Origin: a virus
Strand: one strand, 5' to 3'
IMG/VR virus record: IMGVR_UViG_3300037231_000129
Coordinates: 34,025-98,024 of that record
DNA length: 64,000 nucleotides
Shown here: piece after piece, positions 13,382 through 37,981 of the stretch
Position numbering within the stretch: the first letter of the stretch is position 1
How the letters are laid out: each line of letters opens with the position of its first letter
Translations under genes and position numbers: made by a program
Notes under the pieces: generated by a model
Databases searched by the model: none
The model's input: only the letters and a program-made list of their open reading frames with translations
What the model was told of the DNA's origin: nothing

Positions 13382-13387
13382 ACCCCA

Positions 13388-15251: not shown

Positions 15252-15316
15252 CGGGATACCCTCTCGACTGAGAGGGGAGTCCAGCCGGCCGCTCTGAAAG
15301 CGCCGACGAAATCCCG
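15252..15316 (+). ncRNA. divergent hammerhead-like motif, type III, GAGTCCA core (A6)
   Basis: CGGGAT/ATCCCG stem III, CCCTCTC/GAGAGGG stem I, G3-C8 swapped core, CGAAA. Confidence 0.45.
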
Positions 15317-15329
15317 AAAGGCACACCCA

Positions 15330-15746
15330 ATGGCCAAATCCAAGCTGTCCGAACGCATGCTTCCTGTGCGAGGTTCCAAGCAATCACATGAATTGCTGAT
15401 AGAGCTGGTCGCCGAACTTAAAATGGCGGCCGAAGAAGGCACTGTCTTGCATTATGCGCCTGTTTTGGACGCTTACGTGTCAAAGCGTAAAGCCAAACAG
15501 ATAAACAAATGCTTTGAGGAAATGCTCGACGAAGTTTTGCTTCGAAAATTGACGACCCTCGAATTTTTGTTTGTTGCGGCTAGACTCTGGCATTTCGCCA
15601 AGCTAGAAACAAATATGACGATGCCGATCCAAGCACGTCCATACTTACCCAAGCTGTTCGATCTCGCCGAAGAATTCGGCGTCGCGGCAGCGGATATCGC
15701 ACAAATCGAAATCGACCATGTCGTGAACCCGCCGCCCGATGATTGA
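15330..15746 (+). CDS. hypothetical protein
   Basis: GAAAGGCACACCCA-ATG leader shared with cluster. Confidence 0.65.
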   Translation: MAKSKLSERMLPVRGSKQSHELLIELVAELKMAAEEGTVLHYAPVLDAYVSKRKAKQINKCFEEMLDEVLLRKLTTLEFLFVAARLWHFAKLETNMTMPIQARPYLPKLFDLAEEFGVAAADIAQIEIDHVVNPPPDD

Positions 15747-15752
15747 TCGGGC

Positions 15753-15811
15753 GGGCCTTCCCCGCACCGCGGGGCAGAGAGCCGAGACCTGCACGTCCCG
15801 GCGAAAGGCAC
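15753..15811 (+). ncRNA. hammerhead-like ribozyme, type III, CAGAGA core (A7)
   Basis: GCCT-T-CCCCGC/GCGGGG-CAGAGA-GCCGAGAC/GTCCCGGC-GAA-AGGC. Confidence 0.7.
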
Positions 15812-15816
15812 ACAAA

Positions 15817-15942
15817 ATGCCGTTCCTCCTCGCCCTGGCATTCATTTACCTGCCGGGTTGGGTCTGGCCCGCGCTCATCATTTTCGCGTTGATCGCGCTG
15901 CTAGTGCCCGGCCTTGCACCCCCCAGAACCGGCGGTAAGTAA
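15817..15942 (+). CDS. 41-aa membrane microprotein
   Basis: MPFLLALAFIYLPGWVWPALIIFALIALLVPG..; ATG directly after motif A7. Confidence 0.6.
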   Translation: MPFLLALAFIYLPGWVWPALIIFALIALLVPGLAPPRTGGK

Positions 15943-15978
15943 CCGCCGGCGCCGGCATTCAACCGGCTTGAGAAAGGG
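15922..15978 (+). ncRNA. hammerhead-like motif, type II, TTGAGAA core (B1)
   Basis: GAA-CCGGCGGT/ACCGCCGG-C-GCCGG/CCGGC-TTGAGAA; weak stem II. Confidence 0.5.
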
Positions 15979-15984
15979 ACAACC

Positions 15985-16260
15985 ATGACCATAGACCCCA
16001 ACCTCCTCCGACCTGGTCATCGTCTGCGGTTCACCCAATCGCTGGACGTCTTCACCCTGGACCACATCTTTCCCAAAGGTGCGGCGGGCACGATCGAAGA
16101 CGCCGAACTCGACGCCCTCCCGGGTCTGCCAATCCTGTATCTGCGCATGGATGACGTCTTTCCCTGCTTGAGCAGCTTCAAGAATGTTCTGCAGATCTTC
16201 CGGTCTAATGACCTGGGTGCGGAGGTGACCGACGCTGAATTCGAACCATGCGGCTTCTAA
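15985..16260 (+). CDS. hypothetical protein
   Basis: AAGGGA SD within motif B1. Confidence 0.65.
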   Translation: MTIDPNLLRPGHRLRFTQSLDVFTLDHIFPKGAAGTIEDAELDALPGLPILYLRMDDVFPCLSSFKNVLQIFRSNDLGAEVTDAEFEPCGF

Positions 16261-16297
16261 GCCGCCTGGTGCCAGGACACCCCTGGCTTGATAAGGA
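16240..16297 (+). ncRNA. hammerhead-like motif, type II, TTGATAA core (B2)
   Basis: TTC-GAA-CCA.GCGGCT/AGCCGC.TGG-T-GCCAGG/CCTGGC-TTGATAA-GGA. Confidence 0.6.
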
Positions 16298-16304
16298 CAT
16301 CCAC

Positions 16305-16910
16305 ATGTTACTCACCGACGACCAGGCCACACGCATCAACGGCCTTCTCCGTGCCACGCGGCCGTTCGCCAAATTGCCGGCGACGAACCAGCGACCCATG
16401 AACACCACGTGGCAAGCACTGAACGACACGTTGATGTCGATGCGGCTCCCCCTCTATCACAGATCCCTGCGCAAGCCGGTTCCCACGGAGAAGGTCTACG
16501 AGGCCGCCGTGCAGAATGGGCTTGCACTCCTCGGCGCGTTCGCGGCGACGCTTGGCACCAAACAGGCCATCGTCAGCAGCCGCGGCCGCTGGATCGACCG
16601 CATCAGCTTTCAGCCCCGTCCCGACGGGATGAACTGGAATGCGGCGCATGCCATCTCCCCGGAGTATCTGGTCCAAAAACGGGCCAGTGATCCGAACCAA
16701 GCTGTCTCGTTGGAGGATTTCCTGTTCATGGCCGCCAAGACTACCTACGTGGTAGCCCGGCGGTCCGCAGGCGCGATCCCCGACATTACCGCTACCTTCG
16801 CCTTCGACGTCGCCTCCGATGGTGCGCCGACGGTCGATGGGGTGGTGCGAGAACACGGCGCCCAGACGCATAACGCGAGCTTGCTGCCGCTTTCTCCTTT
16901 CCGCCTTTGA
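16305..16910 (+). CDS. hypothetical protein
   Basis: TAAGGA SD within motif B2; ATG 16305. Confidence 0.65.
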   Translation: MLLTDDQATRINGLLRATRPFAKLPATNQRPMNTTWQALNDTLMSMRLPLYHRSLRKPVPTEKVYEAAVQNGLALLGAFAATLGTKQAIVSSRGRWIDRISFQPRPDGMNWNAAHAISPEYLVQKRASDPNQAVSLEDFLFMAAKTTYVVARRSAGAIPDITATFAFDVASDGAPTVDGVVREHGAQTHNASLLPLSPFRL

Positions 16911-16965
16911 GAAAGGCGCGCCCTTCGGGGCCGCTTATCCATGCACATCATCATGGACTGAAGAC

Positions 16966-16994
16966 TTGATTTCCCGCCTGATCATTACCATATC
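16966..16994 (+). promoter_or_regulatory. putative sigma70-type promoter for the large ncRNA
   Basis: TTGATT-N17-CATATC in an AT-richer stretch just upstream of the structured region. Confidence 0.5.
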
Positions 16995-16999
16995 AGTTG

Positions 17000-17815
17000 G
17001 GTCATTAAAATCCGAATGATCTGGGCCCGGTTAGCGCCCTAGAGTGCGGCGCTTCTGCGCGGCTTGAGACGATCCTGGTGCGACGGTCGCACTTGCAATT
17101 TAGCAGGCGAGATGTTGAGGAAGACATCAATAGAGATTCCGCATCGTTGTGGTACTTGCAAGAACGCGGAAAAGGCCAATGCTCGACTGTAAGGCCAGTT
17201 GGGATTTGAGTACGGCAGCACTTGTAACCCTGCCCGAACACGGGGGCGCCACCCTCCAAGCCTAAACCTCTTCTATTTCGTCCAATGAGTATCGACCAAA
17301 ATGGCTCCGCTATAGTCCATCGGCATGCCGGTCATCCGGATTGATGCCAGTTAGAATGCGGTTCCGAGTGCCTGGGGTCTATGGCCCCCAGGCCGCCATG
17401 AGTAGTCGAGCCATCCGTAGTGGTAGAAGTTGGTTTGACTATGGAAATCAAACTGATGGAATTCACCGCGGAGATCCTATCCGGCAAGCCATTGGCGACC
17501 GCAAGGGCGCCGAGAATGCCGAGAGTTCATGCAGGCCCATGAGCAGGATAGGATCTGGTTTCCGTCGCATAACGCGGCGGGCTGAGAACTCGCCCGGGGC
17601 CTGGTCGCAATCCAGTAGCCAGAGCCCCCGGGCGGCAGAAACCAGATATCATTCCCATAGCATAGCGGTCCGAGTAGCTTAGTGCGCTCGACTGCTAAGG
17701 CCGGCAGCTTCTGCTGTGTTTCGAAAGGAACCCGCGTTGGGTGTGCGCGGCGGCCGGCATCTCACCCACCACCCAACTTCCCCCCTGACAGGACCCCCTG
17801 TCAGGGGGTTTTTTT
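17000..17815 (+). ncRNA. large (~800 nt) highly structured non-coding RNA, GOLLD/ROOL-like in size and style
   Basis: no credible ORF; many local hairpins, long-range 10-11 bp helices, GNRA loops and AGTA/GAA loop-E-like motifs; bounded by promoter and terminator. Confidence 0.75.
17781..17815 (+). terminator. intrinsic terminator
   Basis: CCCCCTGACAGG-accc-CCTGTCAGGGGG followed by T7. Confidence 0.9.
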
Positions 17816-18238
17816 GTGCCTTTGACGCCAGCTCGCCAGTCCGTGCAACGCGGCGCGGAGTAATGGCTGCTGGGTGGCCGTGGGCGGGTTTTCCCACACC
17901 ACGCAATTTACCAGCACATTCCAGGAATCCGGGCCGATCGCGTCGTAGGCATGCGCCAGCTGGTGCAACGCGGCTGCCTGCTCAGACGCGCGCGTTGCGT
18001 CTGCTTCAGTGAACGAGGAGCGGCTCAACCGCCCGCGGAGGTTGCCTGTCGTCGCCATTTCGCCAAACCAGGCGGCCGCGCCCAGCAGTTTGGCGACCTC
18101 GTCGCCCAGCTCGCCGGCGTGCGCCATCACCTCGAGCGGTGTGAGCATGCGGCCCGGAATGACGGTTTTCACGACCATCCGGCCATCTTTGATCGTGACG
18201 TCGGCGAATGCCGCCTTGACACGATGTTGATACGCCAT
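17801..18238 (-). CDS. DUF6456-like putative late-transcription regulator
   Basis: A...L..AYDAIG....VLVNCVVWE...LLRAALHGLA.W pattern resembles the GafA C-terminal family. Confidence 0.4.
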   Translation of the reverse strand: MAYQHRVKAAFADVTIKDGRMVVKTVIPGRMLTPLEVMAHAGELGDEVAKLLGAAAWFGEMATTGNLRGRLSRSSFTEADATRASEQAAALHQLAHAYDAIGPDSWNVLVNCVVWENPPTATQQPLLRAALHGLASWRQRHKKTP

Positions 18239-18304
18239 GGAAAACCCCTCTATCGTGGACCATGATCTTGCCTACGACTCTAGGAAAGCGGTTAACATCC
18301 GGCC

Positions 18305-18841
18305 ATGAAAGCCCCGACCAGCCTCCCCGTTCTGCCATTAAAAGCCGATATCACGAGCGAGGTGGGTCAGATCGCGATCGCGATCCCACTGGCCACGACG
18401 TATCTGCTTTCACTGATCGATCCGGCCGACAAGAAAGGTAAACGGCATCTGTATAATCAGCGGCACTTGCGAAATTTGACCGGCGGTGGCGACAAGAATG
18501 GCAAAGGCGGCAACGAAGAAGACCGGCTGCACAAGAATTCGATCCTGAAAATCTGGGACCTGCGCAAGATATGGGCGGTCCCTCAGCCAATAAATCCCAC
18601 TTTGGGGAGAGCCTATCGAAAAGCATGCTCAGTGGCTGGTGGTACGCCCACCATGAAGAAACCGAAAATGCACTGGATCGAGGCGAAAGAGGGTGCATCC
18701 GGCTTCATGGGCGAAAGCGGGCGCTACCAATGGCTGTGGAACCCTGAGGTTTCCACCTTCGAGAAGCTGGAGCTGATCCTCGCTGAAGCCCGCCGGCGGG
18801 GGTTTGACGCCGAGGTGGTCAAGATGCGGCAAGCGGCGTGA
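18305..18841 (+). CDS. hypothetical protein
   Basis: 178-aa ORF divergent from the preceding gene. Confidence 0.6.
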   Translation: MKAPTSLPVLPLKADITSEVGQIAIAIPLATTYLLSLIDPADKKGKRHLYNQRHLRNLTGGGDKNGKGGNEEDRLHKNSILKIWDLRKIWAVPQPINPTLGRAYRKACSVAGGTPTMKKPKMHWIEAKEGASGFMGESGRYQWLWNPEVSTFEKLELILAEARRRGFDAEVVKMRQAA

Positions 18842-18853
18842 GGGATCCCCCGC

Positions 18854-19477
18854 GTGAGCCCCGAAAACGCCCCATCCTCGCTCACCATCCCTGTTGCGTC
18901 TGCGCCTCTCGATTTGCTCCCTACGGCGTCGGAAAAAGCTTTCCTTGGATCTTCAGTCAGGACTGGGAAACCTACTTCAAATCCATGCTCTGGTACTGTC
19001 CGAAGCACAATCCAGACACCGCGGCGTCGCAACCATTACGAACGCCGGCTGCAAATCTACCTCGTGCGTCAGTTCCGCCGCCTGGTCGATCCACTGGACG
19101 CGAGCCTGATCGCGATCGAGAACGGCGAAGACCGTAGCCCGGAGACGCTCGAGCTGCTCGATGCCATGGGGTTGGAGGCCGGTATCACCGACCTGGTGCT
19201 GCTCGCCACAGGCGCACGGGCGCACTGGATCGAGATCAAGCTGGCCAAGACGGATCTGCATGCAGCGACCGACGTGCGGCCCAACCAGCAGGTGATCCAC
19301 AACCTGCTCCGCTATTATCGCTTCCAGGTCAGCGTGGTGCGGACGGCGGACGAATTCTGGGCAATCGTGGATGCGATGCAGATCCACCATTTGCCGCGGC
19401 CGCCGGTGCATGAGCAGCTGCACCTGCCGGTGATGCGCCGGCGGCGGCTGAAGCGCCCGACGGCCGAGGCGGCCTAG
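18854..19477 (+). CDS. VRR-NUC domain nuclease
   Basis: MGLEAGITDL...WIEIK...RPNQ...VVRT PD-(D/E)xK pattern; start uncertain. Confidence 0.75.
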   Translation: MSPENAPSSLTIPVASAPLDLLPTASEKAFLGSSVRTGKPTSNPCSGTVRSTIQTPRRRNHYERRLQIYLVRQFRRLVDPLDASLIAIENGEDRSPETLELLDAMGLEAGITDLVLLATGARAHWIEIKLAKTDLHAATDVRPNQQVIHNLLRYYRFQVSVVRTADEFWAIVDAMQIHHLPRPPVHEQLHLPVMRRRRLKRPTAEAA

Positions 19478-19968
19478 CCGATCGGCTTAGCCGGCGGCCG
19501 CGATTCCATCAGTTGTCCCGTTTTTCCATGCGAGAGAGTCGGCCGGGACGGTTTCCCCTGAGCCTGCGGCCTGCATCCGTCAGCCAAAGCAACCGGTTCT
19601 CCGTCCTGGTGACGAGGCCGGCTGACGTCGCGGCGGCGACGATCGCCCGGTCATCCGGCAGGCTACGCGATTCCCACCATTCGGCGAACAGCGTGCTGTC
19701 AGCGATGACGGCCTGGGGCGTCGGATCTTGCGTCATCATGGCAAATCCGTATTCGAGGCGCTGGACAGCGAGCACCATCCGTCCCACTCGGTCATCGTCG
19801 ACGTCGTCCAGAGCATGCAGCCATCCGCCAGACACCGTGTCGCGACGATGACGTTCGCCGTCTGTTGGCTGCTCATCGTCGGTCCTGGCCGGTTGATGGC
19901 TGGCCCCTCATCCTGCATCGACAGGGTGCGCGACCATGGGCACCATTTCTTCTTTGCTTCGTCGGGGC

Positions 19969-20520
19969 TCATTCTTCGGTTTCCTCTGGTTCTGGAGCGT
20001 CGGCGGCGAGCACCTCTTCAGGGTGCTTTTGCGCCATGTGGGCACTGAGATCAGCGAAGCTGGTATCGCAGTGCAGGCAGATGCCGTGAGCCGCCTGCTT
20101 CTCCGCTCGCCGCAGCGCCTTGTTGGCGTCGCGGGCCTTGCGACGCGCCCGATCGCGCGCCTCGATCGCCACGCTGAAGGCTTCTACCGCGCGGAATTGG
20201 CGGCCCTGCGCCTCGGTCGCAATTCGCTGGAGGCGCTCGATCTCTTCCGCCTGGCGGGCGGTCTCCTGCTTCAGCCGATCACGCTCGCGGCGCGTCATCT
20301 CGTCCTGGCAGTTGTCTTTGTCCCAGCCCCAGCCGTGCCCATTCGGACAGTAATTGTAGCCGCCCTTGTTGTGCCGGTGGTCATAAACCTTGATCGGAAC
20401 GACATAGAGAACGCCACAGCTGCCGCATTCGGTGATCCGGTAGGACTGGTCGCGGATCTCGATCAGGTCGCAGCTAAGAGATCGTGTCGGCGGGATCACC
20501 GCCAGATTTTGCCGTCCCAT
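19969..20520 (-). CDS. zinc-binding coiled-coil hypothetical protein
   Basis: CGSCG, YCPNGH, coiled coil, C..C...F..L..HM..KHP. Confidence 0.6.
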   Translation of the reverse strand: MGRQNLAVIPPTRSLSCDLIEIRDQSYRITECGSCGVLYVVPIKVYDHRHNKGGYNYCPNGHGWGWDKDNCQDEMTRRERDRLKQETARQAEEIERLQRIATEAQGRQFRAVEAFSVAIEARDRARRKARDANKALRRAEKQAAHGICLHCDTSFADLSAHMAQKHPEEVLAADAPEPEETEE

Positions 20521-23214: not shown

Positions 23215-23217
23215 CGG

Positions 23218-25376: not shown

Positions 25377-25460
25377 TATCCGAAACCGCTCCGTGGCCGT
25401 GCCTCCCTCCCATGACCACGGGACGATCCGCCGGCGATCAAGCCGGCACTGATGAGGATA
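25377..25460 (+). ncRNA. hammerhead ribozyme-like, type II, CTGATGA core (B3)
   Basis: stem II TATCC/GGATA, GAAA, stem III CCGTGG/CCACGG, ATC site, stem I GCCGGC gatcaa GCCGGC, CTGATGA. Confidence 0.8.
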
Positions 25461-25464
25461 CCCC

Positions 25465-25698
25465 ATGACAACACGCATCCCGCAGGTCGTTCTGGACGCT
25501 TACGTCGCGCGTTGGTCGCATCTCGGGATATTGGCCGGGAAGGTCAATGATCCTGCTGTCACCGGCCTGCGCGCCGCACGCACATTCGCCCAGACGGTTT
25601 GCTGTCTCGAATCACCTCCCACGGTCACCATCAACCAGGTTCGCGGGCTTGCCCGCGTGGCCAATGGCGAACCCTGGGAAGCGATCCCCGACGTTTGA
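25465..25698 (+). CDS. hypothetical protein
   Basis: GAGGA SD within B3. Confidence 0.65.
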   Translation: MTTRIPQVVLDAYVARWSHLGILAGKVNDPAVTGLRAARTFAQTVCCLESPPTVTINQVRGLARVANGEPWEAIPDV

Positions 25699-25751
25699 AA
25701 CCCCGGCCCGCCGGGTTCCCGGCGCAATCTGGCGCCGGACTGATGAGGAAC
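25693..25751 (+). ncRNA. hammerhead ribozyme-like, type II (B4)
   Basis: GAAAC-CCCGGC/GCCGGG-TTC-CCGGCGC/GCGCCGG-A-CTGATGA-GGAAC. Confidence 0.7.
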
Positions 25752-25756
25752 ACCCC

Positions 25757-26002
25757 ATGCCACCAAGAAGACGCGTTGAATGGCTCGCGGCGAAAGCCGA
25801 GGGTCAATGCAACGACGTGCCCTACGACACCGAGCTGGTGAACAGCAACGGCGTCTCCATCCATTTTTGGCTGGGCGACCGTGAACCCACCGACGAACTG
25901 CTCGACGATCTCTCACGACGTGCCTGCAATCGGCGGGACATCGTGCGGATCCAATTCTCCGAGGGTCAGCCCACCGGCTTCTGGGCTCACTCCGATTTCT
26001 GA
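25757..26002 (+). CDS. hypothetical protein
   Basis: ATG after B4. Confidence 0.6.
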   Translation: MPPRRRVEWLAAKAEGQCNDVPYDTELVNSNGVSIHFWLGDREPTDELLDDLSRRACNRRDIVRIQFSEGQPTGFWAHSDF

Positions 26003-26062
26003 CGAAACCCCGGCTCAGCCGGGTTTCCGGCGCAATCCTGCGTCGGGCTGATGAAAGGAATC
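25994..26062 (+). ncRNA. hammerhead ribozyme-like, type II (B5)
   Basis: GATTTCT..CGAAAC-CCCGGC/GCCGGG-TT-TCCGGCGCA/TGCGTCGGG-CTGATGA-A-AGGAATC. Confidence 0.65.
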
Positions 26063-26064
26063 AC

Positions 26065-26577: not shown

Positions 26578-26590
26578 AAGAATCCAGCCC

Positions 26591-27166
26591 ATGGCAAATC
26601 TGACTGTTTACCGCCAGCAAGAGCCACCGTTTTCAATGACGATGGCCAACTGCCTGGCGGCCGCTGCCACCCAGGAAGACACCGATCTGATTGCCCTGTC
26701 CATGCGCACCAAGCGCCCTGCTCTGGTGGGCCTCGACAGCCGGTCGTCGATCATTCTACCCGGTGGAGACCTCGACGGACGTACCACGTTCGAAGATCTC
26801 TACGACACCTGCCTGACATTGGTCGACCTGCAGCACATGCGGGAGGCCAATGTTAGCAACCCTGAGGATGTGCCACTGCGAGCCTACAGGCTCGAAGTGT
26901 TGTTTGCGATCGATGGCACCTGCCAAATACCGATTGCTCTTCTCGCCAGTTCTATCGGCGATGCACGCCCCCGTTTGCGTACTCTCCTCGCCAAGGATGT
27001 TATGTTCCGCGAAGCCCTGTTTGACGCTGTCATTCAGGCTATCGACCGGAACTTTCGGGCTGAGGAGGATATCGTATTCCGGGTGCGGGAGAGCAGCATG
27101 GACGATCGCTCCATCATCCCGCCCCTGCTCCCAGGGGCCGGGCCAGAGTGGCGCATTCTTGAGTAA
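26591..27166 (+). CDS. hypothetical protein
   Basis: ATG 26591, follows previous gene. Confidence 0.6.
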   Translation: MANLTVYRQQEPPFSMTMANCLAAAATQEDTDLIALSMRTKRPALVGLDSRSSIILPGGDLDGRTTFEDLYDTCLTLVDLQHMREANVSNPEDVPLRAYRLEVLFAIDGTCQIPIALLASSIGDARPRLRTLLAKDVMFREALFDAVIQAIDRNFRAEEDIVFRVRESSMDDRSIIPPLLPGAGPEWRILE

Positions 27167-27168
27167 GT

Positions 27169-27231
27169 GAAAACCCCGTAGCGGATACCGCCGCGGGGTT
27201 TTGCTTGCATTCAGCAAGCATTGATAAGGAA
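27169..27231 (+). ncRNA. hammerhead-like, type II, TTGATAA core (B6)
   Basis: GAA-AACCCCG/CGGGGTT-T-TGCTTGC/GCAAGCA-TTGATAA-GGAA; weak stem II. Confidence 0.65.
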
Positions 27232-27239
27232 CACACCCA

Positions 27240-27482
27240 ATGTCTGACGAACCCAAGATCCTTGACGGGATCGCTATGCCCCCGATCCACCCCTCGATCA
27301 CCATGGACTTGGTTCTCGAAGCCATGGATCGCTCACCAAGCGAGACAGACGCCCTCGGCTTCTGCCTGGCGTGTGGCGAGAGCGTGCGAGAGATCGCTAC
27401 GAGCACCAGGCGCGAGACATGCGGCTTCTGCGGTTGCCCTGCCGTCTTCGGCGCCGAGGAAATCATGTTCATTCTCGCCTGA
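27240..27482 (+). CDS. small zinc-finger protein, paralog 1
   Basis: GFCLACG..CGFCG.PAVFGAEE. Confidence 0.7.
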   Translation: MSDEPKILDGIAMPPIHPSITMDLVLEAMDRSPSETDALGFCLACGESVREIATSTRRETCGFCGCPAVFGAEEIMFILA

Positions 27483-27533
27483 TCCGAACCTGGGCCACGC
27501 CCGGGCGCGGGCATTTCGCCCGCTTGAAAAGGA
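27483..27533 (+). ncRNA. hammerhead-like, type II, TTGAAAA core (B7)
   Basis: TCC-GAA-CCTGGGC/GCCCGGG-C-GCGGGC/GCCCGC-TTGAAAA-GGA. Confidence 0.65.
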
Positions 27534-27540
27534 ACACCCC

Positions 27541-27786
27541 ATGTCGAAAACCGCTCAGGAGATCCTGGATGCCCTGCCCCTGCCGCCGATCCATTCGAGC
27601 GTCACGCCCGAGCGGCTCACCGAGGCGCTCACCCGCTATCAGCAGACCTTGGATAACCCAGGGTTTTGTTTGAGTTGCGGCGCCGAGGCCGAGGGCTGCG
27701 AACCCGATGCCCGTCGCTACCACTGCGACGAGTGCGGACAGCCCGCCGTCTTCGGCGCCGAGGAACTCGTGCTGATGACGATGTAG
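27541..27786 (+). CDS. small zinc-finger protein, paralog 2
   Basis: NPGFCLSCG..GCEPDARRYHCDECG.PAVFGAEEL. Confidence 0.7.
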   Translation: MSKTAQEILDALPLPPIHSSVTPERLTEALTRYQQTLDNPGFCLSCGAEAEGCEPDARRYHCDECGQPAVFGAEELVLMTM

Positions 27787-28017
27787 GAGGCAGCCATGGC
27801 AGCGCGTCTCTGGAATCCTCACATTGGCACCCTGAAAGGCGGCCTACATCATAGTGTGGCCTACATCATTCAGATGCGGGTGCCACGCGATGAAGGCTAT
27901 GGCTCGCCCATGGTCGCCCTGTCCGATTACACCACTTCCCGCCGTACGGCGGATAGCTGGTTGGCGGATGCTCGGGTGAAGGCCGGCCGCTATCTCAGGG
28001 ATACCCGAAACAAATAA

Positions 28018-28066
28018 CCGAACCCGGGCTACACCCGGGTGCGAGCATCCCGCTCGCTTGAAAAGG
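28018..28066 (+). ncRNA. hammerhead-like, type II, TTGAAAA core (B8)
   Basis: CC-GAA-CCCGGG/CCCGGG-T-GCGAGC/GCTCGC-TTGAAAA-GG. Confidence 0.6.
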
Positions 28067-28075
28067 AAACACCCC

Positions 28076-28669
28076 ATGGCTTCCTATCGTGAACTCGCGG
28101 CCGCCATCGAGGCGCTCTGCCGCGCTATTCGTGCTCGAACGATATCGCCTGCCTCGGCGTTGCTCACGTCATGTGAAGCGCTTGCCGCGGCCGCTCGCCG
28201 TGGCATCGTTGCTCAATCGCCCTGGACGCCCTTCGAGCCAGCGACAGCGCCGCCGATCTCCGAACGGGCACTGCAGCTCACCGCTGAAAGACTGAACCTG
28301 CCCCTTGAGGACGTCCGTCGTGAGTTGACCGACGAAATCCAGGGACCGCAGATCTTCATCAACAGCCGCTACCAGGTCGCCATGCGGCTTTGGGAACCCG
28401 GCGTCATGTATCTGTCGATCAAGCGTCTGGACCAGCAACCCATCCGGTCCTGGCGCGACCTGCAGCGGATCAAGACCGAACTGGTTGGCCCCGAAAACGA
28501 AGGGGTCGAACTGTTCCCCGCGGAATCGCGGCTCATCGATCGGGCCAACCAGTTCCACCTGTTCATTTTGACCGATCCAGCGGCGCGGTTCCCGTTCGGT
28601 TACAAGCACACCCGCGACGTCGGCCCTCCCGTTGGCCTTGGCGAGGCGCAGGAACCATTCGAGGCATAA
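28076..28669 (+). CDS. phage hypothetical protein
   Basis: YLSIKRLD..PIRSWRDLQRIK.ELVGPE.EGVELFPAESRLID.ANQFHL motif resembles a recurrent phage family. Confidence 0.7.
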   Translation: MASYRELAAAIEALCRAIRARTISPASALLTSCEALAAAARRGIVAQSPWTPFEPATAPPISERALQLTAERLNLPLEDVRRELTDEIQGPQIFINSRYQVAMRLWEPGVMYLSIKRLDQQPIRSWRDLQRIKTELVGPENEGVELFPAESRLIDRANQFHLFILTDPAARFPFGYKHTRDVGPPVGLGEAQEPFEA

Positions 28670-28670
28670 T

Positions 28671-28715
28671 CCGAACCCCTTCGGGGGTGCGAGCAATCAA
28701 GCTCGCTTGAAAAGG
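28671..28715 (+). ncRNA. hammerhead-like, type II, TTGAAAA core (B9)
   Basis: CC-GAA-CCCC ttcg GGGG-T-GCGAGC aatcaa GCTCGC-TTGAAAA-GG. Confidence 0.6.
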
Positions 28716-28723
28716 CTACACCC

Positions 28724-28926
28724 ATGTCGAGGCACCCTCAATTCAGAATGGGATTTAAGACCGGCAACAATGCTTTCGATTACGGTCTGGGCATCCTGGA
28801 ATCCATCGCATTTTGACCGAGATCAACGCCAAAATCGCTGATGGCGATCGAATAGGTAAGATCATGGACAGCAACGGCAATTCCATCGGCCAGTGGTCAC
28901 TGGAATTGCCGGACGATAAAGATTGA
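28724..28926 (+). pseudogene. small phage gene with apparent 1-nt frameshift near 28800
   Basis: MSRHPQFRMGFKTGNNAFDYGLGILE continues in another frame as HRILTEINAKIADG..GKIMDSNGNSIGQW. Confidence 0.55.
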
Positions 28927-28927
28927 G

Positions 28928-28979
28928 CCGAACCCGCGGCGCAAGCCCGGGCGCGAGCGATCAAGCTCGCTTGATAAGG
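28928..28979 (+). ncRNA. hammerhead-like, type II, TTGATAA core (B10)
   Basis: CC-GAA-CCCG.GGC gcaa GCC CGGG-C-GCGAGC gatcaa GCTCGC-TTGATAA-GG. Confidence 0.65.
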
Positions 28980-28988
28980 AAACACCCA

Positions 28989-29423
28989 ATGGGATACACA
29001 CATTTTTGGTTTGCACCCGAAGCAATCAGACCCCGCATCTGGTGGGTCGTGATGGCCGACGCGCTTAAGTTGGTGGAAGCATTCCCAGGCCCTGGTGGCC
29101 TCTGCATGGGCATCGAGAACCAAGCCCAGCGAGCCTTCGTCTCACGCGAGGAAATCCGCTTCAATGGCGGACCAGGCGCGCAGGCGGAGGATTTCAGGCT
29201 CACCCGGGAAGCCGGCAAACGGTATAGCTCCTGCAAGACCCAGCATCAGCCCTATGAACGGCTGGTCTGTGCTATACTTGCCTCCACCGCTGATCGTACT
29301 CGGCTCATTCGCGTCACCAGCGATGGCAATCATCACGATTGGTTACCATATATAGAGTGGGCGTCCACGGTGTTGCGGCGTCCACTCCCGATGCCGATCC
29401 ATACCAACGAAATCACAGGGTAA
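28989..29423 (+). CDS. phage hypothetical protein
   Basis: MGYTHFW..IRFNG..EDF..CKT...PY...VCAIL..V.SDG motif resembles a recurrent phage family. Confidence 0.7.
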   Translation: MGYTHFWFAPEAIRPRIWWVVMADALKLVEAFPGPGGLCMGIENQAQRAFVSREEIRFNGGPGAQAEDFRLTREAGKRYSSCKTQHQPYERLVCAILASTADRTRLIRVTSDGNHHDWLPYIEWASTVLRRPLPMPIHTNEITG

Positions 29424-29480
29424 CGAACCCCACCGCCCGGTGGGGACGCCGGCGATCAAGCCGGCACTGAGGAGTAACCC
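29418..29480 (+). ncRNA. hammerhead-like, type II, CTGAGGA core (B11)
   Basis: GGGTAAC-GAA-CCCCACCG/CGGTGGGG-A-cGCCGGC gatcaa GCCGGCa-CTGAGGA-GTAACCC. Confidence 0.7.
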
Positions 29481-29481
29481 T

Positions 29482-30303
29482 ATGGCAGATCTCGACATTA
29501 TCGAACTCATGCGGAGCCCGCTGACCCAAAGCGGGAAATCCTCGAACTTCCTGCGCCTGGTGCTGTCCGAAGCCGCAAGCTACGGCATGCCGGCGCAGGT
29601 GGTTGCTACACTCGACGACATAGCGGCGATGCTCGGCTACTACCGGCCCCTGCCAGAGGGGCAGGCCGTGCATCTGGCGGGTCCTCTTGTGCAATGGCGT
29701 ACCGACCGGCAACAGCCGGTGCTGGAACGCATCACGGAAATCGAAGGCCTGGCGCTCAAACAGCGTGCCCTCGTTGCTTTCGGCGGCGCACCACCCGACC
29801 ACCGGGTAGGCACCGCGGAGATCATCGTCGCGCTGTCCAACTGCCATAAGAGCTTCATGCCAAAGCCCTATTATGAGATTTGGGCATGGGCTTGTACCAC
29901 CGTCATGGCGCATCTGACCGGCGAAAACCCCGAGAAGATCCGCAAGACGAATGAGTGGCCGCAAGTTTTCGACAACGATGTGCTCCGCCCCGGCGGCCGT
30001 CTGCACCCCACTTACACGGAGATCGCCACCTCTATTCGTCGCGTCAGCATTGATTCGATGCGAGGCGATGAAGAAAACCCACGGGTCCGGCTGCGGCCCC
30101 TTGCTCTGGTGTTTCTCCACGCGCATCAACGGTATCTCAACGAAGCCAAGCACGAAGCTGGTTCCGTCGAGTTGCTACAGGTTGAGGCGGTGGAAAACGC
30201 GATCAAGTCGATCCACAGCATGTTTCCCGATATCACTCAGGACGAGATCAACGCCGTTGATTTCACTGAGGAAGTCTCAAAGCTCGCAGAGCTGAGCATT
30301 TAG
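29482..30303 (+). CDS. hypothetical protein (probable remote paralog of 33192-33779)
   Basis: GAGGAG SD within B11. Confidence 0.7.
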   Translation: MADLDIIELMRSPLTQSGKSSNFLRLVLSEAASYGMPAQVVATLDDIAAMLGYYRPLPEGQAVHLAGPLVQWRTDRQQPVLERITEIEGLALKQRALVAFGGAPPDHRVGTAEIIVALSNCHKSFMPKPYYEIWAWACTTVMAHLTGENPEKIRKTNEWPQVFDNDVLRPGGRLHPTYTEIATSIRRVSIDSMRGDEENPRVRLRPLALVFLHAHQRYLNEAKHEAGSVELLQVEAVENAIKSIHSMFPDITQDEINAVDFTEEVSKLAELSI

Positions 30304-30365
30304 CCGAACAACCGCCCGGGCCCAGCGCCTGGGTGGTTTAGCGCCAACACGGCGCCAGACGAGGC
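30303..30365 (+). ncRNA. hammerhead-like, type II, CAGACGA core (B12)
   Basis: GCC-GAA-c-AACCGCCCGGG/CCTGGGTGGTT-ta-GCGCC/GGCGC-CAGACGA-GGC. Confidence 0.55.
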
Positions 30366-30394
30366 AATTCTGCTCGCTGCACCGGGATATCCCG

Positions 30395-30703
30395 ATGGCT
30401 GATCACAAACGAAAACCCGCCAAAACCACGAAATTTCCGAAAAAGTTTCGCATGAAACTGGAAAAAATCGTGGAGGCCAAAGCCGGGCGGGCATCGGAAG
30501 CGACGAGAGAAGAGGCATTCGACAAGATTGCCGACGTTCTCGGCCGCGAACTGCTGACGCCCGGCTCGGTCTACGCGACGCACACGGTGATCGACGAAGC
30601 GAATTTTCGTCTAACCTCGCGTCACTGGATCCAGCCGATCGACAAGCTTCGCTACCTGTCGGTTCCTGCTCCCTGGCTTCCCGAAACCCCGGCCTCCTCG
30701 TGA
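30395..30703 (+). CDS. hypothetical basic protein
   Basis: 102-aa ORF in cluster. Confidence 0.55.
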   Translation: MADHKRKPAKTTKFPKKFRMKLEKIVEAKAGRASEATREEAFDKIADVLGRELLTPGSVYATHTVIDEANFRLTSRHWIQPIDKLRYLSVPAPWLPETPASS

Positions 30704-30744
30704 GGCCGGGATATGCCGGCGATCAAGCCGACACTGATGAGGAA
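30678..30744 (+). ncRNA. hammerhead ribozyme-like, type II (B13)
   Basis: CC-GAAAC-CCCGGCCTC/GAGGCCGGG-ATA-TGCCGGC gatcaa GCCGACA-CTGATGA-GG. Confidence 0.75.
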
Positions 30745-30750
30745 CACCCC

Positions 30751-31074
30751 ATGAGATACTGCAAAATCATCAACGGATTGCTCTACGACACCGAGACTGC
30801 CGACCTGATCTGCGACATAACTCCGAAAGAGGCCGGCCAATCTCGCAGCGATTTCAACTACGATGACACTGGGCTCTACCGCACCCCCGGCAAGAGGTTT
30901 TTCATCGCCGGGGAAGGAGGTCCCACTTCCCGCTGGAGCACGCCTGTGAACAACGGTCTTTTCGAAGGCAATGGCCTGAGAGAAATTACCGAAGAAGAGG
31001 CAAAAGCGTTCGTCGAGGAATTCGCCTCGGTCGAGATGTATATCGCAGTTTTCGGCGAGCCCGATTCTGCTTAA
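30751..31074 (+). CDS. phage hypothetical protein
   Basis: KIING.LYDTETA..LYRT..GKRFFIAGEGGP.SRW motif. Confidence 0.7.
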   Translation: MRYCKIINGLLYDTETADLICDITPKEAGQSRSDFNYDDTGLYRTPGKRFFIAGEGGPTSRWSTPVNNGLFEGNGLREITEEEAKAFVEEFASVEMYIAVFGEPDSA

Positions 31075-31136
31075 GCGAAACCCCGGCCTCCTCGTGAGGC
31101 CGGGATATGCCGGTATTTCGCCGGCGCTGATGAGGC
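31075..31136 (+). ncRNA. hammerhead ribozyme-like, type II (B14), at end of cluster
   Basis: 38 nt identical to B13, then stem I TGCCGGT/GCCGGCG, CTGATGAG; no downstream + ORF. Confidence 0.7.
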
Positions 31137-31137
31137 C

Positions 31138-31923
31138 CTAAGCCGGCAACGATGCCACGTCCGCCGAGAGCGACGCCCAATCCAGGTCGGATGGAGCGAG
31201 CCCCGTGGTGGTGATCCAGAACCGCGACAGCGCGACGTCGGTGGCGAGCCAATACCTGGAGAGAAAATCAGGGTGCATCCACACCTGCTCCGCCCACGTC
31301 TCGCCATTGAGATAGCCGTCGCGCTGGCCGCCCACGGCAATGCTGTGCTGACCCCAGCCACCAGGCTCCCAGCCTGTCCCGGTGCCAGGCGCATCCCCCC
31401 AAGCACTCACCGGGGCCTGCAGCAGCGCCTCGGGCAGCGCCAGGGTGATGCGGACCGGGCCGGCCAGATCGATCGCCACCGGGGTGTCCGCCAGGTCAGC
31501 GTGCGTCCAGCCGATGACGTCGAGGTCGTTGGCCGGATTGCCGAGCGGCAACCCTTGCGTCGCCCACCAGGCCATGAACTCATTGGTGTTGGTGCCCGAG
31601 CCCATACCGGGTGGCGTGTAGCCCGTGCGCTGGGTGTACAGGCCGAGACAGCCGGCCGTCGTCGGCAAGTAGCTGTTCGGTCCCCAGGCATGATGTGCCC
31701 GGGCGCGGGCGATCTGGAAGGCGCTCACCTCGACGCAATTACCGGCGTCATTGTTGCCCAGCATGGGATCGGGGCCGCTAGCGAAATCGATCCCGTCGAA
31801 CCAGTCGGTTTCCGGTTTGGTCTGGGGCAGCTGCAGCAGTGAAGCGAAAGCGCGAATCACGGCGGGCCGGGGCGTATGGATCGCCCCGGTGCAACGTTCG
31901 ATCATCTTACTGTACCGAAGCAA
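31138..31923 (-). CDS. papain-like cysteine peptidase family protein
   Basis: MLGNNDAGNCV (Cys), GQHSIAVGG (His), ETW. Confidence 0.55.
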   Translation of the reverse strand: MLRYSKMIERCTGAIHTPRPAVIRAFASLLQLPQTKPETDWFDGIDFASGPDPMLGNNDAGNCVEVSAFQIARARAHHAWGPNSYLPTTAGCLGLYTQRTGYTPPGMGSGTNTNEFMAWWATQGLPLGNPANDLDVIGWTHADLADTPVAIDLAGPVRITLALPEALLQAPVSAWGDAPGTGTGWEPGGWGQHSIAVGGQRDGYLNGETWAEQVWMHPDFLSRYWLATDVALSRFWITTTGLAPSDLDWASLSADVASLPA

Positions 31924-32443
31924 CTTGCAGGTAAGCCAGACCCAGCAGGCTGAACATGCTGGCTTCGGTGGGATTCTTGTCGATGCCGGCGAGGTGGGTG
32001 ATGTGGTTGATCATCTCCGCCTGCTTGTTCGCGGTGGCGACGTCGGCCTTCAATTTCTGGAAGTCGAACATCGCCTTGGCATCGACCGGCGCGGTCACGG
32101 TGCCAGGCATTGGCGCGAGAACCGCAACCAATCCCAGGATCGAGGGCAGGAAGCTGCCCAACTGGCTGATCGTGTTGGTGACATCCGTCAGCACGGACGA
32201 AGCCGTGGTGCCGGAGGTTCCCAAGTTCAGCGCTGCCACGTCCGTGGACAGTTTCGACGTGGCCGCGGCGACCTGCTGGAGCTCCGTCGTGGTGAGCGGC
32301 TGGCCGTTGGCGTCGGCCTCGATGTCAGTGATCAGCGTCGCGGTGTCGCCGGCGACGGCGCTGATTGCGGTCGAGCTGGTCGAGCTGCAAGACGCGACCA
32401 GCAGCGCGGCCGTGGATGCGCCGACGAGGAGAACTTTTTTCAT
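31907..32443 (-). CDS. lipoprotein
   Basis: MKK + hydrophobic stretch + LVASC lipobox. Confidence 0.7.
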   Translation of the reverse strand: MKKVLLVGASTAALLVASCSSTSSTAISAVAGDTATLITDIEADANGQPLTTTELQQVAAATSKLSTDVAALNLGTSGTTASSVLTDVTNTISQLGSFLPSILGLVAVLAPMPGTVTAPVDAKAMFDFQKLKADVATANKQAEMINHITHLAGIDKNPTEASMFSLLGLAYLQVASVQ

Positions 32444-32479
32444 CCGAGTGGCCTTTCTACGATGTGGCGATGGGTCGCC

Positions 32480-32791
32480 TTATGAGCCGGTGGCGGGTGC
32501 CGGCGACGGTGCGGGTTGCGAGAGCGAAGCGGCAAACGCGGTTGCGGCGGCCAGGACCGTCTCGCCGGCGTTCTCGATCTGCACCACGGGCACGCCGTGT
32601 GCCTCGGCCGACGCAATGCCGGCGGCCAGGGCCTCCGAGATCAGCGGCGAGCTTGCCGTCAGGGTCGTCAGGCTCTCCTCGGCCACCGCGACCTTGCCGA
32701 CCAGCCAAACCGCCGCGTGTTCGACCGCGGTCAGCCCTTCGTGGCCAATTTGTTCAAGCTTCTGGACGATTGTCATCGAGGGATCGGACAT
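32480..32791 (-). CDS. hypothetical Ala-rich protein
   Basis: GGAGG SD. Confidence 0.65.
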   Translation of the reverse strand: MSDPSMTIVQKLEQIGHEGLTAVEHAAVWLVGKVAVAEESLTTLTASSPLISEALAAGIASAEAHGVPVVQIENAGETVLAAATAFAASLSQPAPSPAPATGS

Positions 32792-32897
32792 GGGAATCCT
32801 CCAAATATATTAGGTTTATCCAGCGGATTGTTCATGCGCGCATTTTTGGTTTGCGGCGAGTCACAAAATCACAGGGTAGTGTTTCAATTTGATCTGT

Positions 32898-32953
32898 GAA
32901 AGCCCCGCATTTTACTAGGAGCTCTGCCGGCACCCCGCCGGCGCTGATGAGGA
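32898..32953 (+). ncRNA. hammerhead ribozyme-like, type II (B15)
   Basis: GAA-AGC..GCT-C-TGCCGGC/GCCGGCG-CTGATGA-GGA; weak stem II. Confidence 0.65.
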
Positions 32954-32957
32954 CACC

Positions 32958-33125
32958 ATGAAATACGCTGTGATTCCCAGCTCCTGGCTCACCACCGGCT
33001 GGGGCTGGAGCGCCCGCCGTCTCATTGTCCTGCAACGGATGGCGATGCGATACGAACTGCCGTTGGACGATCCAACGCGGCTGGAAGGCCTGTATCGCCA
33101 CGTCTGCTTTGAGATATGGCCTTAG
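32958..33125 (+). CDS. 55-aa hypothetical protein (not in ORF track)
   Basis: MKYAVIPSSWLTTGWGWSARRLIVLQ..; fills the gap between B15 and B16. Confidence 0.6.
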   Translation: MKYAVIPSSWLTTGWGWSARRLIVLQRMAMRYELPLDDPTRLEGLYRHVCFEIWP

Positions 33126-33187
33126 TGCGAACCCCTGCCTCCCGATCGGCAGGGGTCCGGGACAATCAAGTCCCGACTGATGAGCAC
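33125..33187 (+). ncRNA. hammerhead ribozyme-like, type II (B16)
   Basis: GTGC-GAA-CCCCTGCC/GGCAGGGG-TC-CGGGAC aatcaa GTCCCG-A-CTGATGA-GCAC. Confidence 0.75.
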
Positions 33188-37931: not shown

Positions 37932-37981
37932 CTCCTGAAACAGCAATGTCCGCCGGTGATCAAGCCGGCACTGACGAGGAG
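37932..37981 (+). ncRNA. hammerhead ribozyme, type II, canonical core (B17)
   Basis: CTCC(T)-GAAA-CA gcaa TG-TC (GUC site, predicted cut after 37950)-cGCCGGT gatcaa GCCGGCa-CTGACGA-GGAG. Confidence 0.8.

What the first reader, a model, noticed from the sequence alone, without database searches (positions are those of the whole stretch)
15252..33187. Core covariation: U3-A8 and G3-C8 swaps, and replacement of A15.1-U16.1 by C-G
Seen: seven copies have TTGANAA (15968, 16288, 27221, 27524, 28058, 28707, 28971) and one has GAGTCCA (15277), so positions 3 and 8 always remain complementary. Eight type-II copies read GAA-C...G-N instead of GAA-A...U-H. Several have a C-A mismatch at 1.1/2.1, and loop I is often (G/A)ATCAA. 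Known: C3-G8 is a tertiary Watson-Crick pair of the active hammerhead and compensatory swaps retain activity; A15.1-U16.1 is normally required. Inference: the 3-8 covariation argues for selection on the catalytic fold. The C-G versions may be slow variants that tune expression gene by gene.
Basis: partly seen in the sequence, partly recalled or inferred. Interest (0 to 1): 0.7.

Follow-up and report, generated by a model that had tools for sequence, protein, structure and literature searches.

The report
Phage hammerhead array with core variants
A 98-kb uncultured phage separates its early genes with 16 small hammerhead-type self-cutting RNA motifs; seven carry a known compensated core variant (U3-A8), and eight replace the nearly universal A15.1-U16.1 pair next to the cut site with C-G, which laboratory rules say should block cutting, yet the rest of their core is fully kept.

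Summary
Mostly confirmed. I parsed 16 type II hammerhead motifs on the + strand (window 15.9-38.0 kb). Fourteen end 7-12 nt before a start codon.

- **Positions 3/8:** C-G in 9 copies and U-A in 7. None is mismatched.
- **Positions 15.1/16.1:** A-U in 8 copies and C-G in 8.
- **Linked changes:** six copies combine U3-A8, C15.1-G16.1 and G1.1-C2.1, so they form one subfamily. The 3-8 switch may therefore be a single ancestral event.
- **The "G3-C8" copy (GAGTCCA, 15277):** not a hammerhead core, because it lacks U4 and A6. It has the layout of a different type III-layout family (G-CAGAGA-GC...GAAAGG).
- **Known or new:** U3-A8 is already known (Perreault 2011), and this scan has reported it in other phages. 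The cluster of C15.1-G16.1 copies is the unusual part. Engineered hammerheads do not cut when 16.1 is G (NHH rule).
- **Signs of selection:** all eight C-G copies keep U4, G5, A6, A9, GAA, a paired 3-8 and H17 other than G, while stems, loops and N7 vary freely.
- **Related phage:** the one relative found (G156) has no type II copies. It has CAGAGA elements before two orthologous genes.

Whether the C-G copies cut was not testable here. Rfam does not recognise most of them.

The parts
15923..15977 (+). Type II hammerhead copy c15968: U3-A8, C15.1-G16.1, H17=C, G1.1-C2.1; A/A mismatch at 10.1/11.1; ATG at 15985
16240..16297 (+). Copy c16288: U3-A8, C15.1-G16.1, H17=U, G1.1-C2.1; ATG at 16305. 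The G156 ortholog of the downstream gene is preceded by a CAGAGA element.
25377..25460 (+). Copy c25449: C3-G8, A15.1-U16.1, H17=C, C1.1/A2.1 mismatch, long stem III, loop I GATCAA; ATG at 25465
25694..25749 (+). Copy c25740: C3-G8, A-U, H17=U, C/A at 1.1/2.1. Best Rfam Hammerhead_II score in the record (25.8 bits, below the gathering score of 37).
26001..26057 (+). Copy c26048: C3-G8, A-U, H17=U, U/G at 1.1/2.1; no convincing stem II
27166..27230 (+). Copy c27221: U3-A8 with canonical A15.1-U16.1, U1.1-A2.1; weak stem II; ATG at 27240
27483..27533 (+). Copy c27524: U3-A8, C15.1-G16.1, H17=C, G1.1-C2.1; ATG at 27541. The downstream gene is a paralog of the gene after c27221.
28017..28067 (+). 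Copy c28058: U3-A8, C15.1-G16.1, H17=U, G1.1-C2.1; ATG at 28076 (DUF7694 protein)
28670..28716 (+). Copy c28707: U3-A8, C15.1-G16.1, H17=U, G1.1-C2.1; stem III of only 4 bp; followed by a 30-codon ORF
28927..28980 (+). Copy c28971: U3-A8, C15.1-G16.1, H17=C, G1.1-C2.1, loop I GATCAA; ATG at 28989
29422..29476 (+). Copy c29467: C3-G8 with C15.1-G16.1, H17=A, C/A at 1.1/2.1. Stem I is identical to that of c25449. ATG at 29482. The G156 ortholog of the downstream gene is preceded by a CAGAGA element.
30680..30743 (+). Copy c30734: C3-G8, A-U, H17=A; stem III identical to that of c31127; ATG at 30751
31074..31136 (+). Copy c31127: C3-G8, A-U, H17=A; lies after the last gene of the block, with no start codon behind it
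32895..32953 (+). Copy c32944: C3-G8, A-U, H17=C; weak stem III; lies in the leader of the next + strand block; ATG at 32958
33126..33186 (+). Copy c33177: C3-G8 with C15.1-G16.1, H17=U, C/A at 1.1/2.1. The only C-G copy with a sub-threshold Rfam hit (22.2 bits). ATG at 33192.
37934..37980 (+). Copy c37971 (outside the given range): C3-G8, A-U, H17=C, 3-bp stem III with GCAA loop; GTG at 37990
30306..30364 (+). Degenerate type II-like element: GAA-C, 12-bp stem III, stem I, core CAGACGA (U4 replaced by A), 15.1/16.1 unpaired or an extra C; 31-nt spacer to the ATG at 30395
   Evidence: read by eye from the junction survey
15253..15315 (+). The 'GAGTCCA' element. It has a type III layout (GGGAU-A-stem I-GAGUCCA-stem II-GAAA-UCCC). 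It is not a hammerhead core and is an outlier of the CAGAGA family.

Best explanation
The region holds an array of type II hammerhead ribozyme motifs that punctuate the phage's + strand early operons. Each lies between the stop codon of one gene and the ribosome-binding site of the next, and the 3' strand of stem II (GGA, GG) is part of the Shine-Dalgarno sequence.

Inferred mechanism, from what is known of the family:
- The RNA cuts itself after H17.
- The upstream message is left ending in the stem III hairpin.
- The downstream message starts with a 5'-OH and the stem I hairpin.
- The short stem II falls apart and frees the ribosome-binding site.

U3-A8 is the known compensated form of the C3-G8 tertiary pair.

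C15.1-G16.1 is a true two-sided swap of the pair that closes stem III. It arose at least twice: once in the U3-A8/G1.1-C2.1 subfamily, and again in copies whose stem I matches canonical copies (29467, 33177).

My reading is that these eight copies are still selected for the hammerhead core. I think they most likely still cut, probably more slowly than the A-U copies.

- **Shown:** the anatomy, the covariation and the conservation pattern.
- **Inferred:** cleavage, its rate, and any effect on expression.

My odds:
- The copies are genuine hammerhead-derived elements under selection: about 0.85.
- The C-G copies cut at a biologically useful rate: about 0.45.
For: - **Anatomy.** All 16 copies show GAA, a stem III hairpin, one non-G base, a stem I hairpin, YUGANRA and a stem II strand in type II order.
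- **Stem I covariation.** It covaries in all six pairs. The stem I, stem II and 3-8 pairs counted together beat all 500 shuffles and all slid controls.
- **3-8 pair.** 9 CG and 7 UA, none unpaired. Ignoring relatedness, the chance is 1/11440.
- **H17.** Never G in 16 copies, although G makes up 30.5% of the window. Expected chance is about 0.003 for 16 copies and 0.05 for the eight C-G copies. My parse did not require this.
- **Conservation contrast.** U4, G5, A6, A9 and GAA are unchanged in all copies. N7, H17, flanks and stems show only 25-63% pairwise identity.
- **Old duplicates.** Tandem paralogous genes at 44% amino-acid identity are each preceded by a U3-A8 copy with unrelated stems, one A-U and one C-G. 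The core outlived complete turnover of the stems.
- **Junction survey.** Apart from the canonical-core copies, only one degenerate two-hairpin element was found. The other gaps are tight junctions or terminator-like hairpins.
- **Literature.** Clustered hammerheads around prophage genes cut in vitro and in vivo, and natural U3-A8 covariation exists (PMC3088659).
Against: - No copy reaches the Rfam Hammerhead_II gathering score (best 25.8 against 37).
- None of the U3-A8 copies, nor c29467, gives any Rfam hammerhead hit even at E<=10 in a 2.5-kb search.
- Engineered hammerheads do not cut when 16.1 is G (NHH rule; PMC3923133).
- A15.1 mutations reduce activity more than 100-fold, and U16.1-to-G was selected as an inactivating change (PMC4075628).
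- The natural U15.1-A16.1 variant cuts poorly (PMC3088659).
- The loop I / 3'-tail pseudoknot typical of type II hammerheads is absent, so fast cutting at cellular Mg2+ is not assured for any copy.
- Stem II is very weak or missing in several copies (26048, 27221, 15968, 32944).
- Copies were recognised through their core, so decayed copies are under-counted.
- The related phage G156 has no type II copies, so the conservation argument rests on paralogs within one genome.
Confidence: 0.6

Rival explanations
1. The C15.1-G16.1 copies, and perhaps others, are catalytically dead descendants of hammerheads. On this view they are kept only as structured intergenic punctuation. Two hairpins would protect message ends, insulate translation or serve as sites for a cellular RNase. 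Cutting by the RNA itself would play no part.
For: - The NHH rule and the mutational data predict loss of activity with G at 16.1.
- Rfam's model does not see most of these copies.
- There is no stabilising pseudoknot.
- Before two orthologous genes of the related phage G156, a different element (type III layout, CAGAGA, also off-consensus) takes the place of a C-G type II copy. So the job can be done by something that is not a consensus hammerhead.
- A degenerate copy exists at 30306-30364.
Against: - A purely structural role does not explain why U4, G5, A6, A9, G12-A14, the 3-8 pairing and a non-G H17 are all kept in eight copies whose stems and loops have turned over.
- N7, the one core position known to be free, varies as expected for a working core.
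Confidence: 0.3
2. The perfect 3-8 complementarity carries little information. On this view one C3-G8 to U3-A8 switch, possibly through a U-G intermediate, happened in one ancestral copy. It was then spread by duplication together with C15.1-G16.1 and G1.1-C2.1. It would therefore say nothing about present-day selection on the catalytic fold.
For: - Six of seven U3-A8 copies share C15.1-G16.1 and G1.1-C2.1.
- Four of them are neighbours with near-identical stem I, GCG(A/G)GC.
- Two U3-A8 copies precede tandem paralogs.
- The association of the 3-8 state with the 15.1-16.1 state (6/1 against 2/7, one-sided Fisher about 0.02) is what shared descent would give.
Against: - Even with one origin, both sides have been kept in seven copies that have otherwise diverged to unrelated stems.
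- No C-A or U-G combination is seen among 16 copies.
- This rival limits the number of events. It does not remove purifying selection.
Confidence: 0.5
3. The motifs are chance matches of short consensus strings in a GC-rich genome full of hairpins.
For: - The core strings are short. TTGANAA alone is not significantly enriched in the window (22 found, 15.8 expected).
- My descriptor gives about 3 hits per 100 kb of strand in unrelated phage DNA.
Against: - Thirteen strict hits lie on one strand within about 22 kb, against two doubtful hits in the rest of the record. Eleven of the thirteen end 7-12 nt before a start codon.
- All carry CG or UA at 3/8, against 23% of background hits.
- CTGANGA is enriched (55 found, 31.6 expected, 0 of 100 shuffles reach it).
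Confidence: 0.02

Closest known systems
Clustered type II hammerhead ribozymes flanking single genes in prophages (Azorhizobium caulinodans, Agrobacterium tumefaciens, Clostridium scindens; Perreault et al. 2011, PMC3088659; Rfam RF02276)
   Same: Type II topology. Several copies in one operon, one per gene or short gene block, on the coding strand. Short stem II of 2-4 bp. Phage early or accessory genes.
   Different: No loop I / 3'-tail pseudoknot. All copies score below the Rfam gathering score. Half of the copies have C-G at 15.1/16.1. The 3' strand of stem II doubles as the ribosome-binding site 7-12 nt before the start codon.
Natural U3-A8 covariants of the C3-G8 tertiary pair (Perreault et al. 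2011; in vitro Przybilski and Hammann 2007, as cited there)
   Same: Seven copies have UUGANAA with both sides changed. The rest of the core is intact.
   Different: Nothing new in kind. Here six of the seven also carry C15.1-G16.1 and G1.1-C2.1.
Natural U15.1-A16.1 hammerhead variant (Perreault et al. 2011, Figure 5 and S6)
   Same: The pair closing stem III next to the cut site is replaced on both sides by another Watson-Crick pair.
   Different: That variant keeps a non-G at 16.1 and so stays within the NHH rule. It was shown to cut slowly. Here 16.1 is G, the one base the rule excludes. It occurs in eight copies of one genome, and activity is untested.
Halovirus HF1/HF2 variant hammerhead (HHphage) 13 nt upstream of a helicase start codon (Perreault et al. 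2011, Discussion)
   Same: An off-consensus phage hammerhead placed just before the start codon of an early gene. A mapped transcript 5' end near the cut site suggests activity in vivo despite the odd core.
   Different: There the change is an insertion near C3 and stem I, in a high-salt host. Here the changes are base-pair swaps.

Membership tests
Hammerhead ribozyme, type II (Rfam RF02276) | Three helices around one junction, with stems I and III closed by loops and stem II open | tested here: met
   All 16 copies parse this way. Stem I covaries in 6 of 6 pairs. Stem II pairs in 69% of cells and is weak or absent in four copies.
Hammerhead ribozyme, type II (Rfam RF02276) | Core strand C3-U4-G5-A6-N7-G8-A9 and G12-A13-A14, with positions 3 and 8 able to pair | tested here: met
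   U4, G5, A6, A9 and GAA are invariant. 3-8 is CG in 9 copies and UA in 7. N7 is free. U3-A8 is an accepted natural variant.
Hammerhead ribozyme, type II (Rfam RF02276) | A15.1-U16.1 pair closing stem III | tested here: not met
   Met in 8 copies. Replaced by C-G in 8: 15968, 16288, 27524, 28058, 28707, 28971, 29467 and 33177.
Hammerhead ribozyme, type II (Rfam RF02276) | Cleavage-site nucleotide H17 is not G | tested here: met
   C in 6 copies, U in 7, A in 3, G in 0, in a window with 30.5% G.
Hammerhead ribozyme, type II (Rfam RF02276) | Score at or above the Rfam gathering threshold (37 bits) | tested here: not met
   Best score is 25.8 bits. Six copies give sub-threshold hits. The U3-A8 copies and c29467 give none at E<=10.
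Hammerhead ribozyme, type II (Rfam RF02276) | Tertiary contact between stem I and stem II, usually a loop I / 3'-tail pseudoknot of 4 bp or more | tested here: not met
   No loop I match to the 30 nt after stem II exceeds what shuffled loops give. A few 5-nt matches to the 5' flank are not significant.
Hammerhead ribozyme, type II (Rfam RF02276) | Site-specific self-cleavage after H17 | not testable with these tools
   This needs a bench assay.

The most novel reading that the evidence does not exclude
The combination U3-A8, C15.1-G16.1 and G1.1-C2.1 may be a co-adapted alternative hammerhead core that cuts efficiently after an N-G-H triplet. That would be a natural exception to the NHH rule. 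It would show that the A15.1-U16.1 requirement depends on context, here on the identity of the neighbouring 3-8 and 1.1-2.1 pairs.
Probability: 0.25. Interest if true: 0.7.

Novelty: new variant of a known kind. Interest (0 to 1): 0.45.

Why it matters
[quoted passage not shown] Eight natural copies with C-G at this pair sit in one genome beside eight canonical copies in the same operons. Some have identical stem I sequences. This is a ready-made panel for asking whether the requirement is absolute in full natural contexts.

- If the C-G copies cut, the target rules for hammerhead design widen, and the structural role given to this pair needs revision.
- If they do not cut, the phage shows that hammerhead-shaped RNAs can be kept with an intact core for a non-catalytic job.

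The U3-A8 part adds only further examples of a known variant.

Tried and rejected
**Searches for relatives of the type II copies**
- blastn against GenBank phages found nothing, neither for the 8-kb block nor for a single copy at E<=10.
- Three IMG/VR pattern scans gave none or only chance matches: stem I plus core, core plus ribosome-site tail, and a U3-A8/C-G descriptor (checked).
- Single-protein locus searches with the 273-aa, DUF7694 and ERF proteins gave one distant locus.
- An alignment of DUF7694 homologs fetched 173 loci from viral, metagenome and genome collections.
- My descriptor found no arrays in those loci. It found two plausible single hammerheads: L058:6890, and L091:430, which has G15.1/U16.1.

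- The genome search does not draw relatives for a virus record.
- An Rfam search of 151 genomes of one order scored too few candidates to be informative.
- A covariance model built from canonical copies alone was dropped because MAFFT misaligned them.

**Literature not held**
- Kore 1998, Nelson and Uhlenbeck 2008, Przybilski and Hammann 2007, and two reviews were not available.

**Rejected readings**
- GAGTCCA as a G3-C8 core.
- Loop I GATCAA pairing with the UGAU of the core. It does not covary with N7, and there is no linker to allow it.
- A register shift that would restore an A-U pair in the C-G copies. No such shift exists in the sequence.

Full report
**What the window is.** The window is bases 34025-98024 of a 98,024-base IMG/VR virus record. 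The region of the finding is a phage early block. It holds many small + strand genes without known families, plus an ERF recombinase, an SSB and a GcrA-like protein, so the host is probably an alphaproteobacterium. G+C is about 61%.

**Checking the observation.**
- Rfam at gathering thresholds finds only a tRNA.
- At relaxed thresholds, Hammerhead_II (RF02276) gives sub-threshold hits at six places. The best is 25.8 bits against a cut-off of 37.
- I wrote a descriptor that asks only for: GAA; a hairpin closed by any pair; one base; a second hairpin; N-T-G-A-N-N-A; and at least two stem II pairs. Positions 3, 8, 15.1, 16.1 and 17 are free.
- On the whole record, both strands, it returns 13 clean copies. 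All are on the + strand between window 15.9 and 38.0 kb. It also returns two doubtful hits.
- Three further copies fail only on stem II or on an irregular long stem III (25449, 26048, 27221), and c31127 was also added by eye. This gives 16 copies, parsed one by one.
- The same descriptor on about 1.35 Mb of other phage DNA gives 74 scattered hits. Their 3/8 letters look random: 17 of 74 are CG or UA.
- CTGANGA alone is enriched in the window (55 against 31.6 expected).

The motifs are therefore real and not chance. Fourteen of the 16 end 7-12 nt before an ATG or GTG.

**The pattern claimed.**
- Positions 3 and 8 read C-G nine times and U-A seven times, never anything else.
- Stem I covaries at all six pairs. 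The stem I, stem II and 3-8 pairs I specified beat every shuffle and every slid control.
- The C/A mismatch at 1.1/2.1 (five copies) and the (G/A)ATCAA loop I (seven copies) are also there.

The one claim that fails is the "G3-C8" copy. GAGTCCA at 15277 has A at position 4 and U at position 6. It also sits in a type III-layout element, not a type II one. It is an outlier of a different local family, described under "The related phage and the other family".

**How many events lie behind the covariation.** The states are strongly linked.

| 3-8 | 15.1-16.1 | 1.1-2.1 | Copies |
|---|---|---|---|
| U-A | C-G | G-C | 15968, 16288, 27524, 28058, 28707, 28971 |
| U-A | A-U | U-A | 27221 |
| C-G | C-G | C/A mismatch | 29467, 33177 |
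| C-G | A-U | C/A, U-A or U-G | 25449, 25740, 26048, 30734, 31127, 32944, 37971 |

- Four of the first group are neighbours with nearly the same stem I.
- c27221 and c27524 precede tandem paralogous genes of 80 and 81 residues, 44% identical.
- The U3-A8 state can therefore be explained by one ancestral switch. The raw 1-in-11,440 figure overstates the evidence.
- The 15.1-16.1 swap must have happened at least twice. c29467 has a stem I identical to canonical c25449 but a C-G closing pair, and the U3-A8 lineage contains both states.

**Is the core still under selection in the C-G copies?** Several observations say yes.
- U4, G5, A6, A9 and G12-A14 are unchanged in all 16 copies. N7, H17, stems, loops and flanks show 25-63% pairwise identity. 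N7 is the one core position known to be free.
- H17 is never G, although my parse did not demand this and G is 30.5% of the window. The chance is about 0.003 for 16 copies and 0.05 for the eight C-G copies.
- The paralog pair shows that core and topology survived while the stems were replaced completely.
- A survey of + strand gene junctions found only one degenerate two-hairpin element (30306-30364). It has CAGACGA and an unpaired 15.1/16.1. The other gaps are tight junctions or terminator-like hairpins.

The caveat is ascertainment. Copies are recognised through the core, so decay is under-counted. No close relative was available to check orthologous junctions.

**What the literature says.** Perreault et al. 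2011 (PMC3088659) report:
- type II hammerheads, clustered around prophage genes;
- cutting of such arrays in vitro and in vivo;
- natural U3-A8 covariation;
- a natural U15.1-A16.1 variant that cuts poorly.

They call A15.1-U16.1 the most conserved pair of the consensus.

Other relevant results:
- The NHH rule states that engineered hammerheads do not cut when the first H (16.1) is G (PMC3923133, citing Kore 1998).
- A15.1 mutations cost more than 100-fold in activity, and U16.1-to-G was recovered when an RNA phage was selected to lose ribozyme activity (PMC4075628).
- A comprehensive double-mutant study found rescue for the G3-C8 swap (PMC9901934).
- I found no paper in the library that mentions a natural C15.1-G16.1 hammerhead. 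The library is partial.

So U3-A8 is ordinary, and this scan has already reported it in other phages. The C-G cluster is the unusual part.

**The related phage and the other family.** A pattern taken from the neighbouring type III-layout family found one related phage, IMGVR_UViG_3300027821_000007 (G156, 91.5 kb).
- It is syntenic with this record over most of its length, at about 30-68% protein identity.
- It has 12 copies of the G-CAGAGA-GC...GAAAGG element and no type II hammerhead by either of my scans.
- Two genes that follow C15.1-G16.1 type II copies here (after c16288 and c29467) have full-length orthologs in G156. Those orthologs are preceded by CAGAGA elements instead.
- The two element types therefore fill the same slot.

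This does not settle activity. It does show that the slot needs some three-way-junction RNA with a hammerhead-like core, and that the type of element turns over between relatives. Its CAGAGA elements are invariant at the corresponding C and G.

**Mechanism, and what is shown against inferred.**
- **Shown:** the position of every copy between a stop codon and the next ribosome-binding site; the overlap of the stem II 3' strand with the GGA of that site; the covariation; and the conservation pattern.
- **Inferred from the family:** cutting after H17; hairpin-capped products; and release of the ribosome-binding site when the 2-4 bp stem II dissociates.
- **Absent:** the loop I / 3'-tail pseudoknot that speeds most type II hammerheads. 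All copies may therefore be slow by laboratory standards.

One further thought is untested. Because A8-A9-G10.1-G10.2 is part of the ribosome-binding site, the G8-to-A8 change alters that site from GAGG to AAGG. The driver of the U3-A8 switch could then be translation, with C3-to-U3 as the compensating change for the ribozyme.

**Verdict.** The 3-8 covariation is real but known, and possibly a single event. The eight C15.1-G16.1 copies are a genuine and unusual variant whose activity cannot be judged without an assay. I file the finding as a new variant of a known kind, of moderate interest.

Noticed in passing
window 13327-13379, 13804-13858, 14158-14212, 14548-14601, 14756-14807, 15755-15809 (+); G156 = IMGVR_UViG_3300027821_000007, 12 copies on its minus strand (L223, L224): A type III-layout three-way-junction RNA with invariant G-CAGAGA-GC ... 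GC-GAAAGG. It resembles a hammerhead core with A in place of U4 and no N7. There are 6 copies here and 12 in a syntenic related phage, each a few nt before a start codon. Stems I and II differ freely but stay paired, and the outer stem III pair covaries (G-C, C-G, U-A, A-U). Loop II always holds CUG, complementary to the CAG of the junction strand. No Rfam family matches at E<=10. It may be an unclassified hammerhead derivative or a separate RNA class.
   Followed up: partly
window 16305-16910 and 29482-30303 against G156 genes starting at 19157 and 6610 (minus strand): Orthologous genes (38.5% and 42% identity, same lengths) are preceded by type II C15.1-G16.1 hammerheads in this phage and by CAGAGA type III-layout elements in the relative. 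The two element types replace each other at the same junctions.
   Followed up: yes
window 30306-30364: Degenerate type II-like element after the 273-aa gene. It has GAA-C, a 12-bp stem III, a 5-bp stem I and core CAGACGA (A at position 4, as in the CAGAGA family). 15.1/16.1 is unpaired or there is an extra C. A 31-nt spacer separates it from the next ATG.
   Followed up: partly
window 30686-30712 and 31080-31106: The stem III hairpins of c30734 and c31127 are identical (27 nt). They flank a single 107-aa gene (30751-31074) as a direct repeat.
   Followed up: no
3' tails of most copies, e.g. window 25747-25759, 27531-27543, 30741-30753, 13380-13390: The stretch between the element and the start codon is conserved in both element families as (GGA)ACACCCC(A)ATG. 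This suggests a shared translation-initiation signal or a binding site beyond the Shine-Dalgarno bases.
   Followed up: no
window 16911-16964: At the end of the left + strand operon lies a hammerhead-like string: GAA-A, a GC-rich hairpin ending in UU, stem I, then CTGAAGA. It has no stem II. It may be a terminator that mimics the layout, or a copy without stem II.
   Followed up: no
L091:375-445 (soil metagenome contig Ga0310811_10145461): A lone, otherwise canonical type II hammerhead 11 nt before an ATG, in a contig that encodes a distant DUF7694 homolog. It has G15.1/U16.1, a wobble pair, at the stem III closing position.
   Followed up: no
window 33783-33811 and 34067-34100: Two + strand junctions in the same block carry terminator-like hairpins followed by T runs instead of ribozyme motifs.
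   Followed up: no
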